Below, piece by piece: positions 2-42,616 of a DNA stretch of 42,616 nucleotides (its first letter is position 1; every line of letters starts with the position of its first letter). The stretch is taken from NCBI GenBank assembly GCA_035695685.1, contig DASRRN010000715.1, forward strand, positions 1 to 42,616, in the 5' to 3' direction. Source of the DNA: Acidobacteriaceae bacterium. Its GTDB lineage: Bacteria; Acidobacteriota; Terriglobia; Terriglobales; Acidobacteriaceae. The translations under genes were made by a program, and so were the position numbers. The notes under the pieces are model-generated. The model did no database searches. It was not told the DNA's origin and saw only the letters and a program-made list of their open reading frames with translations.

Positions 2-68
2 TCATTTCGCAGGTGATCTGCGGGCCATTCGCGGGTCATTCGCGGGCGATCTGCTGGCCATCTGCTAA
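2..68. repeat. Six head-to-tail ~11-bp repeats (helically phased array)
   Basis: Units are tcatttcgcagg, tgatctgcggg, ccattcgcggg, tcattcgcggg, cgatctgctgg, ccatctgctaa. Units 3 and 4 are identical in 10/11 positions. The array ends 30 bp upstream of a -35-like box. Confidence 0.8.
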
Positions 69-97
69 TTAATGTTGCTCACGGTGCAACGTTTTTC

Positions 98-125
98 TTG
101 ACACTTTATATATACCTGATATATA
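98..125 (+). promoter_or_regulatory. Sigma70-like promoter candidate for the clamp-loader-like gene
   Basis: TTGACA (98-103), 16-nt spacer, TATATA (120-125), in an AT-rich patch within a GC-rich genome. Confidence 0.4.
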
Positions 126-146
126 TGTTGTATTCGTAATCAATCG

Positions 147-3806: not shown

Positions 3807-4142
3807 CTAATCGTCCCTTCGCTCTGCACACTTGCCGGCGATCGGTATGTTGTGCTTTGTGCCGTCCACTCCCTCCATCCACTTTCGGCCGCGCTCAAGA
3901 TAGCGGATGAACTCGACAACATTACTCTGAGCCAGGGCCACCAGCTTGCTGTGGTCCTCTTCGTATGCGATTAGCAGAGAGGTATTGAAGGGAAACATCG
4001 GAGGCGCCAGCGCTCCGCCGGCTTTCAGAGATTCGAGCGAGATCGGATCCGCCTTCTGCATCCGTCCCAGGTTGTCCGGTTCGATCACCACCACAATCAG
4101 GGTGCGCTTCTCTTCCGGTAAATTGAATATTCCACAAATCAT
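3807..4142 (-). CDS. Hypothetical protein, 111 aa
   Basis: Track ORF is 3807..4208. ATG 4142 (MICGIFNL...) forms an ATGA overlap with the DnaC-like stop. Confidence 0.6.
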   Translation of the reverse strand: MICGIFNLPEEKRTLIVVVIEPDNLGRMQKADPISLESLKAGGALAPPMFPFNTSLLIAYEEDHSKLVALAQSNVVEFIRYLERGRKWMEGVDGTKHNIPIAGKCAERRDD

Positions 4143-4975
4143 CGTTTCATTCTCCAGTCCGGTCCCGTCATGTCGACACTCACGCACATCTCCTGCAGCC
4201 GGCTCCACATGCGCATCCCGATGCGATCGCCCAGCGTCTCCTGACGTGTGGCGCGCGCGTACTCATTTTGTACATTTGTTACATTTCCGCCTGCCGGCAA
4301 ATTGGCCAGGTTGGTGGTTACGATCACGGGCACTATACGGTTGTATAGTCCTCCGATCAGTAGCTCGATGGTCTCAAACACCCAATCGCTCGGCCGAGCC
4401 GCGCCCAGCTCGTCAATCACCACCAGGTCTGCATTTAAAAGCGGGGCCAGAATCTGAGCCTGGCTTTCCTTGGCATCATCTCCATAGCTCGATCGCAATC
4501 GATCCAGGAGCTCGCGCACGTCGACAAAGCGGCCGTAGATTCCCTTCTCCTCAATCAGTTGGCGTAGCGCCGCCGCGGCCAGGTGCGTCTTGCCTACTCC
4601 CACACTGCCTGTAAGCATCAGGCCAAGTGTCCGCGGATTGGCAGCCAAACCGGGTACAAACTCGCGCACAAACTGCAGGCTCGTCATCATCGCCTTAGTA
4701 GTGGTTTCCGTCTTTTTGAAATTCTGAAAGCTGGCCTCGAGGTAGCCGGCCGGGATCCGCGATCGCGCAATCATCGCCTTATACCGCTGCGATGTCTGGC
4801 ACCTGCAGGGCGCCGAGCAGCGCACTCCGTCGACCAGGCGCGGCACCAGGCCGATGCCTCCGCATTCCGCGCATGCCGTCATGGTTTCGGGCGCGACCGC
4901 CGTCTGGTTTCGTTGACGAGGATCTTCAGGGCATCTGGATTCATTTTTCCCAGCTGAGCCGCTCCGCCCAGGCAT
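4139..4975 (-). CDS. DnaC/IstB-like AAA+ helicase loader with N-terminal Cys cluster
   Basis: Walker A GSVGVGKTHL, Walker B LVVIDELG, sensor VIVTTNL. The N-terminus has CAECGG..C..C.C. The start is ambiguous (4975 or 4882). Confidence 0.8.
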   Translation of the reverse strand: MPGRSGSAGKNESRCPEDPRQRNQTAVAPETMTACAECGGIGLVPRLVDGVRCSAPCRCQTSQRYKAMIARSRIPAGYLEASFQNFKKTETTTKAMMTSLQFVREFVPGLAANPRTLGLMLTGSVGVGKTHLAAAALRQLIEEKGIYGRFVDVRELLDRLRSSYGDDAKESQAQILAPLLNADLVVIDELGAARPSDWVFETIELLIGGLYNRIVPVIVTTNLANLPAGGNVTNVQNEYARATRQETLGDRIGMRMWSRLQEMCVSVDMTGPDWRMKR

Positions 4976-39268: not shown

Positions 39269-39634
39269 TTACACATTAATGGTTCCCAGGTGTGCTTCAA
39301 GCGGAGATGCGCCGCCGGAATGGCTTTCCTCGAGCTCTGCGGCGGCCGGCTTATTCTTCGGCCCGCGTTTGTTTCCCTTCTTCCATCCCCGCTTCACGCC
39401 GTGGGCTTTGTTGTACTCATTGCGCCACAGCGTAAAGAGCCGTCGTTGTTCCGGAGTACTCGGCCGGTTGCAGTTCCTACACCTGGTCATATCGCGCAGC
39501 ACCCGGCGCGCATTTTTCAGATCGCGCGCATGCGCATCGCTGCAGGTGACGGCCTTGCGCGTCACTCGCTCCGGGGCAATCGGTTCGCCGCAAATCACGC
39601 AATGAAACACAAGCTCGGTCAGATTTTTCGGCAT
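39269..39634 (-). CDS. Small Zn-finger/basic protein, 121 aa (paralog A)
   Basis: The N-terminus MPKNLTELVFHCVICGEP is shared with the next gene. It also has CRNC and a Lys/Arg-rich tail. Confidence 0.55.
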   Translation of the reverse strand: MPKNLTELVFHCVICGEPIAPERVTRKAVTCSDAHARDLKNARRVLRDMTRCRNCNRPSTPEQRRLFTLWRNEYNKAHGVKRGWKKGNKRGPKNKPAAAELEESHSGGASPLEAHLGTINV

Positions 39635-39948
39635 CGTAGTCCCTTCAGTTCGCGACGGTATAGTTCGCGGTCCTGTTCCAGTGTGGCTTGTAGGGCGTCC
39701 CGCTCGGCTTCTACCTTCTTTGCCCAGTCATAGTTGTCATTGCAAAGTCTATGGCTGGTTTCGAGGAGATCCCTGATTGCCTCGAAAGTCGACAACTGAC
39801 CTGTTGGGTTACATCGATACTTTCGCATCAGTTCGGCAAACTTTTCGATTTCCTCTTGCTGTGCCTGTATCTGCTGCTCAATGTCGGCGGGTAATCCTGT
39901 GCCGCAAATCACACAATTAAACACAAGCTCGGTCGGATTTTTTGGCAT
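39587..39948 (-). repeat. Duplicated 48-nt gene 5' end (39587-39634 and 39901-39948)
   Basis: gccgcaaatcacgcaatgaaacacaagctcggtcagatttttcggcat aligns with gccgcaaatcacacaattaaacacaagctcggtcggattttttggcat at about 90% identity. Confidence 0.85.
39619..39948 (-). CDS. Small protein, 109 aa (paralog B)
   Basis: The N-terminus is MPKNPTELVFNCVICGTG. The remainder is helical and unrelated to paralog A. Confidence 0.55.
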   Translation of the reverse strand: MPKNPTELVFNCVICGTGLPADIEQQIQAQQEEIEKFAELMRKYRCNPTGQLSTFEAIRDLLETSHRLCNDNYDWAKKVEAERDALQATLEQDRELYRRELKGLRCRKI

Positions 39949-40034
39949 CGCTCAGTGTCCCTTCAATTCATTCCAAAAACTGCGCGCCAGCCAGATCACC
40001 GCATAAGCTCCAAGCATCGCCCAGGTTAAATCGC

Positions 40035-40580
40035 TCACAATGTTTCCTCCACAATCTCCACCCGCACGTGTACACGTTCAGGTGTTCCATAAATTTTGTG
40101 CAGCTCATAGTCGACCACCTGGCTGTCGTCTTCATAGAGCACGCCGGTCAATCCGTCGGCGGTGCTCCGAGCAAGCTTGTCCAGGTCAGGTTTCACTGTC
40201 GGCCGAGCGCGTGTCGCCGGCGCAGATTTGGGACGCGCGAAAACAAAAGTGATGGCCACGCGTACCGGCACACCCGCCGGTGCCAGGAGCAGCTCATGCA
40301 GGCCTGCGGCGGCTTTCGCGCGCAGCGCCGCCCAGCCCACTTCATTGCGATAGGGATGGGTGCGCTTATTGTCGCTTTTGAAAATCGTGCCTGGGCTTCC
40401 ATCCTCGCGCACAATGGCGACGCCGCTCATGCTGCCCTGGGGTGCGGCCTTGCACTCGACGATGAATTCGATGGCTCTTACTTTAAGCAGTTGATTGACT
40501 GCTGCTTGAGCATTCTGTCCGCGCTCGATAAAGTCCGTCCATGCTTGTCGCTCAGCCTTCTGCGTCATCCTGGCCATCAT
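40035..40580 (-). CDS. rusA: RusA-family Holliday-junction resolvase (with N-terminal extension)
   Basis: VKPDLDKLARSTADGLTGVLYEDDSQVVDYELHKIY matches the RusA acidic catalytic core. ATG 40580 is chosen because the track start 40718 would overlap the divergent RHH gene. Confidence 0.7.
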   Translation of the reverse strand: MMARMTQKAERQAWTDFIERGQNAQAAVNQLLKVRAIEFIVECKAAPQGSMSGVAIVREDGSPGTIFKSDNKRTHPYRNEVGWAALRAKAAAGLHELLLAPAGVPVRVAITFVFARPKSAPATRARPTVKPDLDKLARSTADGLTGVLYEDDSQVVDYELHKIYGTPERVHVRVEIVEETL

Positions 40581-40633
40581 TTTTTCTGCATCCCGATTTC
40601 TTATGAAGTGTACCAGTGTTGTACCATGCCGCC
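40581..40633. promoter_or_regulatory. Divergent control region between the minus-strand and plus-strand arms
   Basis: The spacer is 53 nt. TGTACCA is repeated at 40609-40615 and 40620-40626 (11-bp phase), next to a T-run. Confidence 0.45.
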
Positions 40634-40876
40634 ATGTCCCAGAAAAGAATAGTTTCGAACCCTTCTCTTCGCATCGCGGATGGAATTTCGATCCGCGTCC
40701 GCTTCGCCAGTCATGCACAAATTGCGCTGGTTAAAACTGCCGCCGCGCGGCGCGGACTTGGCTTCAACTTCTATCTGCAGTCTGTGCTCCAAGCAGTCTC
40801 TGAGCAGGTGATGGCCGCGCCTCTCACAACTTCCCTTGGCCACCTTCTCGAAGCAGAAAATTCCCAAACGAAATAG
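40634..40876 (+). CDS. Ribbon-helix-helix regulator, 80 aa
   Basis: ISIRVRFASHAQIALVKTAAARRGLGFNFYLQSVLQAV fits a strand-helix-helix pattern. The track start 40616 (GTG) is also possible. Confidence 0.6.
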   Translation: MSQKRIVSNPSLRIADGISIRVRFASHAQIALVKTAAARRGLGFNFYLQSVLQAVSEQVMAAPLTTSLGHLLEAENSQTK

Positions 40877-40986
40877 GTATTCCGCCACTGCTCCAAGCAT
40901 GATTAGGAGCATTTTTGTTCGCGCCGTTTTTGATCGTGCATGCCCGATGCTCCGAGCATCGCTCCTGCATAACGAGGTATGGGCTA

Positions 40987-42036
40987 ATGAGTAAGAGTTC
41001 TTCCCCTTTTCAATCGAAGGTTGATGTGTTTATGCCGCTCTACATCGGTCGCTATCTCCAGGACACAACCGAGCTAGATGGTGCCGAATCAGGGTTCTAT
41101 CTGCATCTGCTCATGCATATCTGGACTACCGGCCCGCTGCCGAATGACGATCGCAAGTTGGCGCAGATCGCGAAAACCACGCCCGATGCTTGGAGCATTG
41201 CATCTGCATCGGTCAAGCATCGGCTCTTTTTAGGCTCTGACGGCATGCTTCACCAGCGCGGAGCTGAGCGCATAAAGGCTGAATGGGTGGAGAAACGATT
41301 GAAAGCGCACGAGAAAGCCCAGCTGGCGGCGAATACGAGATGGAAAAAATACCGGGAACAGAAGGCGAACAAAAACGATGCTCCAAGCATTGCTAGAGCA
41401 ATGCCCTACAACGGTAAAGTACAAGTACAAAAGCAAAAGCAAACCCCACCCACCCCGCCCCAGCTTCGCCAGGGCGGGCCCGATGCTCCGCACACCGGAG
41501 TGCTCCAAGCATCCGCACGGCGAACCTCGAGGCCGGCGGCGGCGGGAGCACCCGGCGGCCGATCGGCGGCGATGCTGGGCGGGAAAGTAAAGCAAATAAA
41601 AGGCGAAACGGCCAGAAACGCCCCTAGGACGCGTCCGAATAGGCAGGTTGAGGGAATCCATCCTAAAAATGTCGGCGACGGCGGGGCGATACCACATCTT
41701 TCTGTCGCTCCCGGTGCAAAAAAGGTGGTGCAACCTCAAAAAACAGATCCGAGGGAGCGGGCCTTCCAAGAGGAGATTTTTGCCTACTGGCGAGGTCAGA
41801 ATCCGGAGCATCCAGATTGCCCCTGGGGAGAGGCGGAATGGAGGGCGCTTCGAGCACTCCTTATAAAGGTGGCGGATTTATCACTGGGGCAGTTACGTAC
41901 AGCGCTGCGAAACCGCGCTGCTTCGGGCATTCCACCAGGCGTGTTTCCCGGCAAATGGCTGCGCAACATCCTCGACTATTCATCCGGCCCACTCGATCGC
42001 TTCCATAAGCCTCTGCGCAGCTCTCGTGTGATGTAG
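40987..42036 (+). CDS. DUF1376-like phage replication-associated protein
   Basis: PLYIGRYLQDTTELDGAESGFYLHLLMHIWTTGPLPNDDRKLAQIA matches the conserved N-terminal block of the DUF1376 family. ATG 40987 has GAGG 10 nt upstream. The central region is basic and low in complexity. Confidence 0.6.
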   Translation: MSKSSSPFQSKVDVFMPLYIGRYLQDTTELDGAESGFYLHLLMHIWTTGPLPNDDRKLAQIAKTTPDAWSIASASVKHRLFLGSDGMLHQRGAERIKAEWVEKRLKAHEKAQLAANTRWKKYREQKANKNDAPSIARAMPYNGKVQVQKQKQTPPTPPQLRQGGPDAPHTGVLQASARRTSRPAAAGAPGGRSAAMLGGKVKQIKGETARNAPRTRPNRQVEGIHPKNVGDGGAIPHLSVAPGAKKVVQPQKTDPRERAFQEEIFAYWRGQNPEHPDCPWGEAEWRALRALLIKVADLSLGQLRTALRNRAASGIPPGVFPGKWLRNILDYSSGPLDRFHKPLRSSRVM

Positions 42037-42278
42037 CTGTTCGTTGATATCGGCTACCCATGTAACAACCAGGTAACTGACAACGGCGCAGCTTTGTGCT
42101 CTAAGCATCCTGATTTGTCGCCGGCATCTCTCTGGCGGCCTGGCTGAGCTGCGATCAAGCCTTATGCTCCAAGCATTGCGTTAGCAGGCGACAAGTATCC
42201 AGGCCGGTGCGCCGTCGCCGGCGTTTTGTGGGTATGCTCCAAGCATGCGCATGCATAAGCGCGGGAGGGACTACGGGA

Positions 42279-42569
42279 ATGAAGGATGCATTAGGTAATG
42301 ATCTGAAGCCGGGAGACCTGGTGATGCTGAGTCTGGATCGGCCACAGGTATTTGGAAGAGTGACCGATGTGCAGGAGGGCGGGCTGATAACGGGCATGCA
42401 GAAGAACGGCGGTGCGCAGCTGCGTCCGTCGCGAGTGACGATCCTGGCCAACCATACGATCGAGGGGGATCCGCGCGTACCTGTGGGTTCGGTGGTCATA
42501 TTGCGCGATCCGGATGCAGAGAAACAGCGCGACCAACCGCCTGCGCCAGTCCTCGAGACTCCCAACTAA
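42279..42569 (+). CDS. Hypothetical protein, 96 aa
   Basis: ATG 42279 has SD GGGAGGGA (42263-42270). The track start 42207 is rejected. The product is beta-rich. Confidence 0.6.
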   Translation: MKDALGNDLKPGDLVMLSLDRPQVFGRVTDVQEGGLITGMQKNGGAQLRPSRVTILANHTIEGDPRVPVGSVVILRDPDAEKQRDQPPAPVLETPN

Positions 42570-42616
42570 AATAGCGCCGCTCTAGTAGCAACAGAAATAC
42601 CCTCAAAGGTGCGATG

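What the first reader, a model, noticed from the sequence alone, without database searches (positions are those of the whole stretch)
40005..42254. Ten clustered copies of a 13-bp palindromic motif (ATGCT-N3-AGCAT) around the replication gene: candidate iteron origin or operator array
The sequence shows ATGCTCCAAGCAT, or a one-mismatch variant, at ten sites.
- Sites: 40005, 40784, 40888, 40947, 41186 (opposite orientation), 41378, 41500, 42096, 42164 and 42234. A half-site is at 41482.
- Significance: I did not notice the 11-nt core GCTCCAAGCAT anywhere else in the 42.6 kb. An 11-mer is expected far less than once by chance.
- Placement: five copies lie inside or at the 5' edge of the DUF1376-like gene, as the lambda ori iterons lie inside gene O. 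Three lie 68-70 bp apart in the 242-bp spacer 42037-42278. The last copy is fused to the palindrome GCATGCGCATGC.
- Context: the cluster sits beside the point (40581-40633) where the two transcription arms diverge.

From this I infer an origin of replication, or the operator set of the adjacent RHH protein.
Basis: partly seen in the sequence, partly recalled or inferred. Interest (0 to 1): 0.78.

Follow-up and report, generated by a model that had tools for sequence, protein, structure and literature searches.

The report
Replication-protein binding sites marking a phage origin
A 13-base DNA word repeated ten times around this phage's replication gene is real, and it sits at the same positions in related phages from several bacterial phyla, so it is most likely where the phage's replication-starting protein binds its own DNA; this is a familiar design, but this word and protein family have not been described before.

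Summary
ATGCTCCAAGCAT, or close variants, occurs at the ten stated sites (40005-42246). Eight sites have at most 1 mismatch and two have 2. Chance predicts about 0.1 such sites in the window, and the 11-mer core occurs nowhere else in it.

The motif is selected at the DNA level:
- It is read in all three reading frames.
- Its codons are fixed as GCT-CCR-AGC.
- One relative carries the site flipped, which turns a Trp codon into a Pro codon.

Site positions are conserved in relatives whose replication protein is only 38-67% identical: -100, -42, +190/199 (inverted), +391, +513, and 2-3 sites in the downstream spacer.

In 80 protein-seeded viral loci (495 kb), every exact ATGCT-N3-AGCAT lies inside the DUF1376 gene, 4-172 nt after the codons of a conserved helix ending AAxARW. 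Seven DUF1376 genes without that helix, including E. coli Rac ydaU, have no motif.

Best reading (about 0.6): these are the cognate sites of the DUF1376 initiator. They form an in-and-around-gene origin like lambda O/ori or SPP1 gp38/oriL, and the -42/-100 sites probably also act as an autoregulatory operator.

The RHH-operator idea is not supported, because relatives without the RHH gene keep all the sites. Binding and origin activity are untested.

The parts
40005..40017 (+). Motif copy AAGCTCCAAGCAT (1 mismatch). It lies between the RusA stop codon and the start of the 109-aa gene on the minus strand.
   Evidence: a comparable site is at -1051 in L139
40784..40796 (+). Weak motif copy GTGCTCCAAGCAG (2 mismatches) inside the RHH-like gene.
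   Evidence: equivalent sites at -194 in L004 and -188 in L142
40888..40900 (+). Motif copy CTGCTCCAAGCAT, about 100 nt upstream of the DUF1376 start codon. Candidate operator or origin site.
   Evidence: position conserved in L139, L004, L141 and L142
40947..40959 (+). Motif copy ATGCTCCGAGCAT, 40 nt upstream of the DUF1376 start codon. Candidate autoregulatory operator.
   Evidence: the only invariant block in the upstream alignment of six relatives
40987..42036 (+). DUF1376 (YdaU-type) replication initiator gene, 349 aa from the ATG at 40987. The model shows a winged-helix-like fold at aa 11-90, a long helix at aa 91-123, a disordered linker at aa 135-249 and a helical C-terminal domain.
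   Evidence: Pfam PF07120 E=2.7e-15; PHROG 'primosomal protein'; AlphaFold2 model
41186..41198 (-). Inverted motif copy inside the winged-helix coding region, read as D-A-W-S-I.
   Evidence: present at +190/199 in all close relatives and in a cultured cyanophage; flipped to DAPSI in P0021/L143
41326..41343 (+). Codons for AANTRW, the end of the conserved helix KA..KA..AA..RW. This helix co-occurs with the motif across different N-terminal domains.
41378..41402 (+). Motif copy ATGCTCCAAGCAT (read as D-A-P-S-I), directly followed by a degenerate unit TGCTAGAGCAAT. It begins 35 nt after the Trp codon.
41407..41446 (+). A-rich tract (62% A+T in a 58% G+C genome), followed by a C-rich run. Possible unwinding element; weak evidence.
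   Evidence: the encoded KVQVQKQKQ is conserved in relatives
41475..41481 (+). Half-site ATGCTCC.
41500..41512 (+). Motif copy GTGCTCCAAGCAT in the part of the gene that encodes the disordered linker, read as V-L-Q-A-S.
   Evidence: relatives read the same site as MLQAS or APSI, that is, in different frames
42096..42108 (+). First spacer copy, GTGCTCTAAGCAT (2 mismatches).
42164..42176 (+). Second spacer copy, exact. It is part of a 23-nt block, ATGCTCCAAGCATTGCGTTAGCA, which is nearly invariant in four relatives.
42203..42222 (+). G+C-rich hairpin followed by a T run (terminator-like), lying between spacer sites 2 and 3. Conserved in relatives.
42234..42254 (+). Third spacer copy, exact, fused to GCATGCGCATGC. 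It lies 45 nt upstream of the start of the 96-aa gene (42279-42569).
40616..40876 (+). Small RHH-like gene upstream of the initiator gene. Neighbouring context; probably not the binder of the motif.
   Evidence: no Pfam or PHROG hit; homologues only in L003/4, L141 and L142, and none in L139/L140

Best explanation
The 13-bp sites (consensus ATGCTCCRAGCAT) have palindromic half-sites, ATGCT and AGCAT, around a conserved asymmetric centre, CCR. I propose they are the cognate DNA-binding sites of the phage's own DUF1376-type replication initiator.

Proposed mechanism:
- Dimers of the N-terminal winged-helix domain, together with the following basic helix KA..KA..AA..RW, bind each site.
- The sites lie upstream of the gene, inside it and just downstream, nearly all in one orientation. 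Together they nucleate an initiator-DNA complex that defines the phage origin and recruits the helicase-loading machinery through the C-terminal domain.
- This is the design of lambda O/ori-lambda and SPP1 gp38/oriL, where the origin lies in the initiator gene.
- The two sites at -100 and -42 from the start codon probably also let the initiator repress its own gene, as plasmid Rep proteins do.

Shown here: the sites exist, they are non-random, they are selected as DNA, their positions are conserved, and across the family they are tied to the region just after the ARW helix.

Inferred, not shown: which protein binds them, that they act as an origin, and that they autoregulate.
For: 1. Enrichment and clustering.

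2. DNA-level constraint.
- The same DNA word is read as DAPSI, MLQAS or CSKH in different frames within one gene or between orthologues.
- [DN]APS[IM] is encoded as GCT-CC[AG]-AGC in 19 of 20 cases, and the Ser is never a TCN codon.
- The orthologue P0021 has DAPSI where all the others have DAWSI. That is exactly the site flipped.

3. Positional conservation.
- The sites at -100, -42, +190/199 (inverted), +391 and +513, and the spacer sites, recur in L139, L140, L004, L141 and L142, at 38-67% protein identity.
- In the non-coding alignments the motif blocks are the invariant columns.
- Over 63 sites all 13 positions are 81-100% conserved, including the centre CCR and the orientation.

4. Family-wide link to the initiator.
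- A motif-seeded scan found arrays inside DUF1376, Lin1244_N or unclassified replication genes, right after an AAxARW helix. Array periods are 11, 12, 18, 21-23 and 31-33 bp.
- In a protein-seeded sample of 80 loci, all 29 exact hits lie +4 to +172 nt after the Trp codon, and none lies elsewhere in 495 kb.
- 7 of 7 DUF1376 genes without ARW have no motif.

5. A distant relative, L005 (28% identity), has a classic array upstream of the gene: seven copies at 17-18 bp spacing (six exact plus one with two mismatches), plus sites inside the gene.

6. Replication context.
- The model shows a winged-helix-like domain, a long helix, and a disordered linker that holds the in-gene sites.
- Neighbouring genes in relatives are a DnaB helicase (L138) and a primase-helicase (L001).
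- SPP1 is the precedent: gp38 binds direct repeats of oriL located inside gene 38 (PMC6316719).
Against: - There is no experimental binding or origin data for any DUF1376 protein. Six papers in the held library mention the domain, and none came up in connection with a replication origin.
- The window has no tight array. Its sites are spread over 2.2 kb at spacings that do not follow the helical repeat (59, 68, 70, 122 and 192 bp).
- No convincing AT-rich unwinding element sits next to the sites. The strongest AT-rich segment and an 11-bp repeat array lie at window 6-144, which is about 400 bp past the last site if the genome is circular.
- The ARW helix is not sufficient: about 9 of 25 members of a second N-terminal family have no motif.
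- About 20 motif arrays have no ARW gene within 8 kb. An unrelated MarR regulator in Mesorhizobium has the same palindrome in its promoter region, so other proteins may be able to read this word.
- Foldseek gave no significant structural match.
- GC skew is uninformative.
Confidence: 0.6

Rival explanations
1. The sites are transcriptional operators and not an origin. A regulator binds at promoter-proximal positions (-42/-100 of the initiator gene, -45 of the 96-aa gene, about -60 of the 109-aa gene) to time early gene expression. The regulator could be the adjacent RHH-like protein, the initiator acting only as a repressor, or another factor.
For: - Three genes have a site 40-60 nt upstream of their start codon.
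- Each site is a palindrome, which is typical of operators bound by dimers.
- The cluster adjoins the divergent promoter region at 40581-40633.
- A Mesorhizobium MarR gene has the same palindrome twice in its divergent promoter region, so the word may serve as an operator.
Against: - Most copies across the family lie inside the replication gene, often as arrays of 11-33 bp period. That is not a promoter arrangement.
- The RHH homologue is missing from L139 and L140, which keep every site, and from the wider family.
- No sigma-70-like promoter was found in 39800-42616.
Confidence: 0.15
2. The sites are read by some other conserved factor, either a host protein or a second phage protein. They would then serve another replication-linked role, such as helicase or primase loading, copy-number control by handcuffing, a fork barrier, or partition. 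The initiator would recognise a different sequence.
For: - The 13-mer is nearly identical in phages of Acidobacteriota, Cyanobacteria, Proteobacteria and Planctomycetota. That is unusual for initiator-iteron pairs, which normally diverge.
- Arrays also occur without a nearby ARW gene.
Against: - No known universal bacterial DNA-binding site resembles it; this comparison with the DnaA box, parS and dif is from memory.
- The motif tracks a feature of the phage protein (the ARW helix) and not host taxonomy. It is absent from DUF1376 phages of the same host groups that lack ARW.
Confidence: 0.12
3. The three spacer sites (42096-42246) are packaging or terminus signals, that is, terminase-binding repeats like lambda cosB. 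The reason to consider this is that independent assemblies end just downstream of them.
For: - The window, L150, L003, L004, L140, L141 and L005 all end from about 60 bp inside the last gene of the replication module (L004) to about 215 bp beyond it.
- Three sites at about 70 bp spacing resemble the layout of cosB.
Against: - The motif follows the replication gene wherever that gene lies, including mid-genome in the cyanophage and in L143.
- The terminase genes are 4-6 kb away.
- The contig ends coincide with the point where homology between relatives stops. That is a common cause of breaks in metagenome assemblies.
Confidence: 0.05
4. The repeat is a by-product of a conserved peptide (DAPSI/NAPSI), of an RNA hairpin, or of chance.
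For: - In the closest 80 loci the commonest reading frame gives [DN]APS[IM].
- The word can form a hairpin with a 5-bp stem.
Against: - Five of the ten copies are non-coding.
- The coding copies use all three frames and both orientations.
- Codons are fixed.
- The hairpin is weak (-3.2 kcal/mol). The sequence itself is invariant, with no sign of compensatory base changes.
- There is no Rfam match.
- Chance expectation is about 0.1.
Confidence: 0.02

Closest known systems
Lambda O protein and ori-lambda (iterons inside gene O)
   Same: - The initiator has an N-terminal DNA-binding part and a C-terminal part that recruits the helicase loader.
- Its binding sites lie inside its own gene, in the region encoding the inter-domain linker.
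- Each site is itself an inverted repeat bound by a dimer (from my knowledge of lambda).
   Different: - No sequence or Pfam relation: DUF1376 versus Phage_rep_O.
- Lambda has four tightly spaced 19-bp iterons followed by an AT-rich region.
- Here the sites are 13 bp, spread over 2.2 kb, also lie upstream and downstream of the gene, and have no clear adjacent AT-rich element.
SPP1 gp38 (replisome organiser) with oriL inside gene 38 and a second site oriR
   Same: - The origin-binding protein binds direct repeats located within its own gene.
- Further binding sites lie elsewhere in the genome.
- Helicase loader and helicase are separate proteins (PMC6316719).
   Different: - A different protein family and a different repeat sequence.
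- The SPP1 origins have a defined AT-rich unwinding element next to the repeats.
Iteron plasmids with autoregulated Rep (pSC101, F, P1, R6K)
   Same: - Multiple copies of one short word sit around the rep gene.
- Copies near the rep promoter could give autorepression.
- Palindromic copies would be bound by dimers (from my knowledge).
   Different: - In those plasmids the iterons are asymmetric 17-22-mers bound by monomers, and only the operator is an inverted repeat.
- Here every copy has the same palindromic half-sites.
- No plasmid in PLSDB carried an ARW-type homologue.
E. coli Rac prophage YdaU (the named DUF1376 protein)
   Same: - The same Pfam domain.
- The same place in a lambdoid-type replication module, upstream of a DnaC-like gene.
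   Different: YdaU lacks the AAxARW helix signature, and its locus has no copy of the motif.

Membership tests
Phage origin made of initiator-binding repeats in or around the initiator gene (lambda O/ori, SPP1 gp38/oriL type) | Several copies of one specific short sequence clustered at the initiator gene and rare elsewhere in the genome | tested here: met
   10 copies lie in 2.25 kb. Only 1 site with at most 1 mismatch lies elsewhere in 42.6 kb.
Phage origin made of initiator-binding repeats in or around the initiator gene (lambda O/ori, SPP1 gp38/oriL type) | Repeats lie in the coding region between the DNA-binding domain and the C-terminal domain | tested here: met
   Sites at aa 131-135 and 172-176 fall at the start of, and within, the low-confidence linker (aa 135-249). 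In 80 related loci all exact sites lie 4-172 nt after the helix.
Phage origin made of initiator-binding repeats in or around the initiator gene (lambda O/ori, SPP1 gp38/oriL type) | The sites are conserved as DNA, independently of the protein they encode | tested here: met
   Three frames are used, codons are fixed, one orthologue has the site flipped, and non-coding copies are conserved.
Phage origin made of initiator-binding repeats in or around the initiator gene (lambda O/ori, SPP1 gp38/oriL type) | An AT-rich DNA-unwinding element next to the repeats | tested here: inconclusive
   Only a modest A-rich tract is present at 41407-41446 (62% A+T). The strongest AT-rich 40-mer is at 105-144, beyond the window end.
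Phage origin made of initiator-binding repeats in or around the initiator gene (lambda O/ori, SPP1 gp38/oriL type) | The initiator protein binds the repeats | not testable with these tools
   Support is indirect only: the motif co-occurs with the ARW helix, and the N-terminal domain is modelled as winged-helix-like.
Phage origin made of initiator-binding repeats in or around the initiator gene (lambda O/ori, SPP1 gp38/oriL type) | The fragment supports initiator-dependent replication | not testable with these tools
   This needs an experiment.
Phage origin made of initiator-binding repeats in or around the initiator gene (lambda O/ori, SPP1 gp38/oriL type) | Helicase or helicase-loader genes in the same module | tested here: inconclusive
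   In the window the AAA+ gene at 172-846 would be next only if the genome is circular. A DnaC-like gene lies at 4139-4975 on the other strand. In relatives a DnaB or primase-helicase gene follows directly.
DUF1376 / YdaU protein family (the gene, not the sites) | Match to Pfam PF07120 above its curated threshold | tested here: met
   56.9 bits against a cut-off of 30.1, E=2.7e-15.
Operator set of the adjacent RHH-like repressor | The sites co-occur with the RHH gene across relatives | tested here: not met
   L139 and L140 have no RHH homologue (tblastn E<=1e-4) yet keep all the sites. The wider family has the motif without this gene.
Operator set of the adjacent RHH-like repressor | The protein is a recognisable ribbon-helix-helix DNA binder | tested here: inconclusive
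   No Pfam or PHROG hit. The RHH assignment rests only on the sequence pattern.
Terminase recognition repeats (cosB/pac) | The repeats lie next to the terminase genes or genome ends, independently of the replication gene | tested here: not met
   The motif follows the replication gene even when that gene is mid-genome. terL lies 4 kb away.

The most novel reading that the evidence does not exclude
The short basic helix ending AAxARW and the palindromes encoded just downstream of it may form a portable 'reader plus site' cassette.
- The DNA-recognition element and its target would be inherited as one unit of under 200 bp.
- That would explain why the cassette is grafted onto at least three different N-terminal domains (DUF1376, Lin1244_N and unclassified ones).
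- It would also explain why the word has stayed almost identical in phages of at least four bacterial phyla.
- A corollary concerns the chromosomal arrays of the same word that have no initiator gene nearby, such as the Acidobacteriaceae elements L025, L036, L040 and L041. These could be satellites or integrated elements that borrow the initiator of such phages.
Probability: 0.25. Interest if true: 0.75.

Novelty: new member of a known kind. Interest (0 to 1): 0.6.

Why it matters
DUF1376 (YdaU, often annotated 'primosomal protein') is a large family of phage and prophage replication proteins. I found no paper describing a DNA target for it. This work gives a precise and testable candidate site, and a candidate recognition helix, for a large branch of that family. 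It would allow origins to be annotated in hundreds of uncultured phage genomes, including phages of Acidobacteriota, which have few genetic tools. It also raises the question of why this initiator-site pair has stayed nearly unchanged across phyla, when iterons usually diverge quickly.

Tried and rejected
- **Nucleotide search of cultured phages.** blastn of 39900-42616 against 50,697 phage records found no match.
- **Cumulative GC skew.** It falls steadily because most genes are on the minus strand, and shows no turning point.
- **Literature.** No paper in the held library contains the 13-mer or its variants in a microbial context. Six papers mention DUF1376, and none came up in connection with a replication origin.
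- **E. coli Rac ydaU as a model.** It has neither the motif nor the ARW helix.
- **Plasmids.** No PLSDB record covers the ARW region, so there is no plasmid origin to compare with.
- **Structure search.** Foldseek against the PDB gave no significant hit. The top weak matches are winged-helix regulators and DnaD.
- **RNA explanation.** There is no Rfam match, and the hairpin is weak.
- **Sigma-70 promoter scan.** Nothing was found in 39800-42616.
- **First attempt at a protein-seeded locus search.** The 11-sequence alignment was too diverse, so I used a 4-sequence alignment instead.
- **Motif-seeded hits that are unrelated.** The pair in Mesorhizobium lies in the promoter region of a MarR gene. 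The hit in a Levybacteria rhomboid protease gene (L039) is a coding coincidence.
- **Contig ends as physical genome termini.** I judged this less likely than assembly breaks at a mosaic junction.
Full report
**1. The observation**

- Four are exact ATGCTCCAAGCAT: 41186 on the opposite strand, 41378, 42164 and 42234.
- Four have one mismatch: 40005, 40888, 40947 and 41500.
- Two have two mismatches: 40784 and 42096.
- With at most one mismatch the window holds 9 matches, against 0.09 expected from shuffles. The only match outside the region is 36910, inside terL.
- The 11-mer core occurs seven times, all within the region.
- Scoring only the ten half-site positions, 9 of the 12 sites in the window fall in 5.3% of the sequence (P = 6e-10).
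- The spacings of 68 and 70 bp in the spacer and the fused GCATGCGCATGC are as described.

**2. Genomic context**

- The window is a tailed-phage genome of 42.6 kb. Terminase, portal, tail and lysis genes lie on the minus strand.
- A short plus-strand arm starts at about 40616. It holds an 86-aa RHH-like gene with no database hit, a DUF1376 gene (Pfam E=2.7e-15; PHROG 'primosomal protein') and a 96-aa gene at 42279-42569.
- RusA is the first gene of the divergent minus arm.
- The closest named homologue comes from a Terracidiphilus (Acidobacteriaceae) metagenome-assembled genome. The host is therefore probably an acidobacterium.

**3. The motif is selected as DNA, not as protein**

- In orthologues 31-69% identical to the window protein, the site after the conserved helix is read DAPSI in most, but MLQA in P0013.
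- The third in-gene site is read MLQAS in some orthologues and APSI in others.
- The site inside the N-terminal domain reads DAWSI everywhere except P0021, where it reads DAPSI. That is the same DNA word turned round.
- In 80 further loci, [DN]APS[IM] is encoded GCT-CC[AG]-AGC in 19 of 20 cases, and the Ser is never a TCN codon.
- Arrays in other phages step through all three frames. In L006, with a 31-bp period, they read DAPSI, CSKH and MLQAS.
- Half of the window's copies are non-coding.

**4. Positions are conserved while the surrounding sequence diverges**

- Measured from the start codon, sites recur at about -100, -42, +190/199 (inverted), +391 and +513. There are also two or three in the spacer after the gene. 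This holds in L139, L140, L004, L141 and L142.
- In alignments of the upstream region and of the downstream spacer, the motif blocks are the invariant columns.
- Pooling 63 sites from eight relatives, all 13 positions are 81-100% conserved. The centre is CCR in 58 of 63 sites, and orientation relative to the gene is conserved.
- The sites are therefore palindromic in their half-sites but arranged as direct repeats.
- A distant relative, L005 (DUF1376 28% identical; terminase and portal 30-37%), has seven copies at 17-18 bp spacing upstream of the gene (six exact plus one with two mismatches), and more copies inside it.

**5. The motif belongs to a much larger family**

- Scanning public collections for two copies close together found 23 viral loci and 35 genomic stretches.
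- In about 25 of these, the array lies inside a replication gene immediately after codons for a basic helix ending AAxARW. The gene is of DUF1376 type, Lin1244_N type or has an unclassified N-terminus. Array periods are 11, 12, 18, 21-23 and 31-33 bp.
- Hosts include Acidobacteriota, Proteobacteria and Planctomycetota, plus a cultured cyanophage, Plectonema phage Lbo240-yong2. In that phage the gene is annotated 'replication protein' and is followed by a DnaB helicase gene.
- As an unbiased test I seeded on the protein, not on the motif. In 80 viral loci (495 kb), all 29 exact ATGCT-N3-AGCAT hits lie in the gene, 4-172 nt after the Trp codon, and none lies elsewhere. About 90% of the non-redundant members have at least one motif-like site there.
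- As a negative control, seven DUF1376 genes without the ARW signature have no motif-like site in their roughly 5-12 kb loci. These are E. coli Rac ydaU and the phages of Bradyrhizobium, Acetobacter, Rhizobium (which has ARY), Pseudomonas, Azospirillum and Microcystis.
- A second protein-seeded sample, from a different N-terminal family, again placed every motif-like site inside the replication gene. Where the ARW helix could be located, the sites lie just after it. About 9 of its 25 members have no such site, so the helix is not sufficient.

**6. Structure**

- The AlphaFold2 model, built on a 16-sequence alignment, shows four regions:
  - a confident N-terminal fold of helices plus a hairpin (aa 11-90);
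  - a 33-residue helix (aa 91-123) carrying the conserved KA..KA..AA..RW stripe;
  - a disordered linker (aa 135-249);
  - a helical C-terminal domain.
- Two of the three in-gene sites fall at the start of, or within, the part of the gene that encodes the linker.
- Foldseek found nothing significant. The best weak matches are winged-helix DNA binders and DnaD.

**7. Interpretation**

- The most economical reading is that these are the initiator's own binding sites and that they define the origin region. This is the lambda O/ori and SPP1 gp38/oriL design (for SPP1; lambda from my own knowledge).
- The promoter-proximal sites at -42 and -100 are well placed for autorepression, as in iteron plasmids (my own knowledge).
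- I put about 0.95 on 'a selected protein-binding DNA element'.
- I put about 0.65 on 'bound by the DUF1376 protein'.
- I put about 0.55-0.6 on 'this is the origin'.

**8. What weakens this reading**

- The window itself has no tight array, and no clear AT-rich element sits beside the sites.
- A second candidate lies just past the window end. It consists of five 11-bp repeats at 6-61, followed by the most AT-rich 40-mer of the genome at 105-144.
- Some arrays elsewhere have no ARW gene within 8 kb.
- A Mesorhizobium MarR gene has the same palindrome in its promoter region.

**9. Rival readings**

- The RHH-operator idea fails the co-occurrence test.
- A packaging role was considered because several assemblies end just after this module. 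However, the motif follows the replication gene even when that gene is mid-genome. The contig ends also coincide with the point where homology between relatives stops.
- Peptide, RNA and chance explanations are excluded by the frame, codon, Rfam and folding results.

**10. Novelty**

- An origin made of initiator-binding repeats in the initiator gene is a known design.
- This motif, its link to DUF1376 and Lin1244_N proteins through an ARW helix, and its near-identity across phyla do not appear in the literature I could search.
- I file the finding as a new member of a known kind. It has one unusual property, the cross-phylum conservation of the site, which deserves follow-up.

Noticed in passing
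window 6-61 and 99-151: Five direct repeats of 11-bp period (units like CATTCGCGGGC and GATCTGCGGGC) are followed by a TTGACA...TATATA promoter-like sequence and by the most AT-rich 40-mer of the genome (105-144, 80% A+T). One more repeat copy lies at 140-151. All of this is upstream of an AAA+ (clamp-loader/DnaC-like) gene at 172-846. This is itself an origin-like or operator-like arrangement. If the genome is circular it lies about 400 bp after the last ATGCT site.
   Followed up: partly
window end 42616; L150, L003, L004, L140, L141, L005 contig ends: Seven independent assemblies end close to the end of the replication module, from about 60 bp inside its last gene (L004) to about 215 bp beyond it. 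L150 ends at the same base as the window. Homology between relatives also stops at this point. The cause could be a mosaic junction that breaks assemblies, or a real terminus.
   Followed up: partly
L139 5126-5301: In the nanopore-derived relative, a near-perfect palindrome of about 176 bp with an AT-rich centre (50-nt arms 100% complementary, 36-nt inner arms 97%) lies 85 bp after the stop codon of the 96-aa gene. It is flanked by a diverged 41-nt inverted repeat (83%). It could be a cruciform or telomere-like element, or an assembly fold-back.
   Followed up: partly
window 39269-39948 (minus strand): Two adjacent small genes (121 and 109 aa) share an almost identical 16-residue N-terminus, MPKNxTELVFxCVICG, and then diverge. 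The 121-aa gene has weak zinc-ribbon and HNH-like hits.
   Followed up: partly
L025 1648-1694, L036 3015-3073, L040 1835-1881, L041 5428-5474, L027 314-360, L046 1207-1281: Acidobacteriaceae chromosomes carry intergenic arrays of the same palindrome (centre TGA/TCA or CCA). In L025 the array lies between an unclassified 481-aa protein and a 231-aa protein, and the same 231-aa protein recurs beside the L041 array. No ARW-type gene lies within 8 kb. These could be integrated elements that use the same word.
   Followed up: partly
L028, L030, L037, L042, L043, L045, L054, L055 (Mesorhizobium): Two copies of TATATGCTCSRAGCATATA, 36 bp apart start to start, lie beside a MarR-family gene (in the three loci inspected, L028, L030 and L037), in what looks like a divergent promoter region. 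This looks like an unrelated cellular regulator with the same palindrome in its promoter region.
   Followed up: partly
window 40987-42036 versus flanks; L003/L004: The initiator is only 52% identical to its L003/L004 orthologue. The neighbouring 96-aa gene is 86-89% identical and terL and portal are 89-90% identical. The replication gene is therefore a fast-evolving or exchanged module, yet its sites persist.
   Followed up: no
L002 2526-2613: In a 41.7-kb viral contig, three exact copies and one weaker copy of the motif lie in a 430-bp intergenic gap between tail-module genes, not near a replication gene.
   Followed up: no
many loci, e.g. L058-L137, just after the motif: In most DUF1376-ARW genes the motif run is followed by codons for (Ser-Pro)n, which make a long pyrimidine/purine-asymmetric tract (TCNCCN repeats). 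In the window the equivalent place holds an A-rich run followed by a C-rich run (41407-41470). These tracts may be part of the DNA element and not only a protein linker.
   Followed up: no
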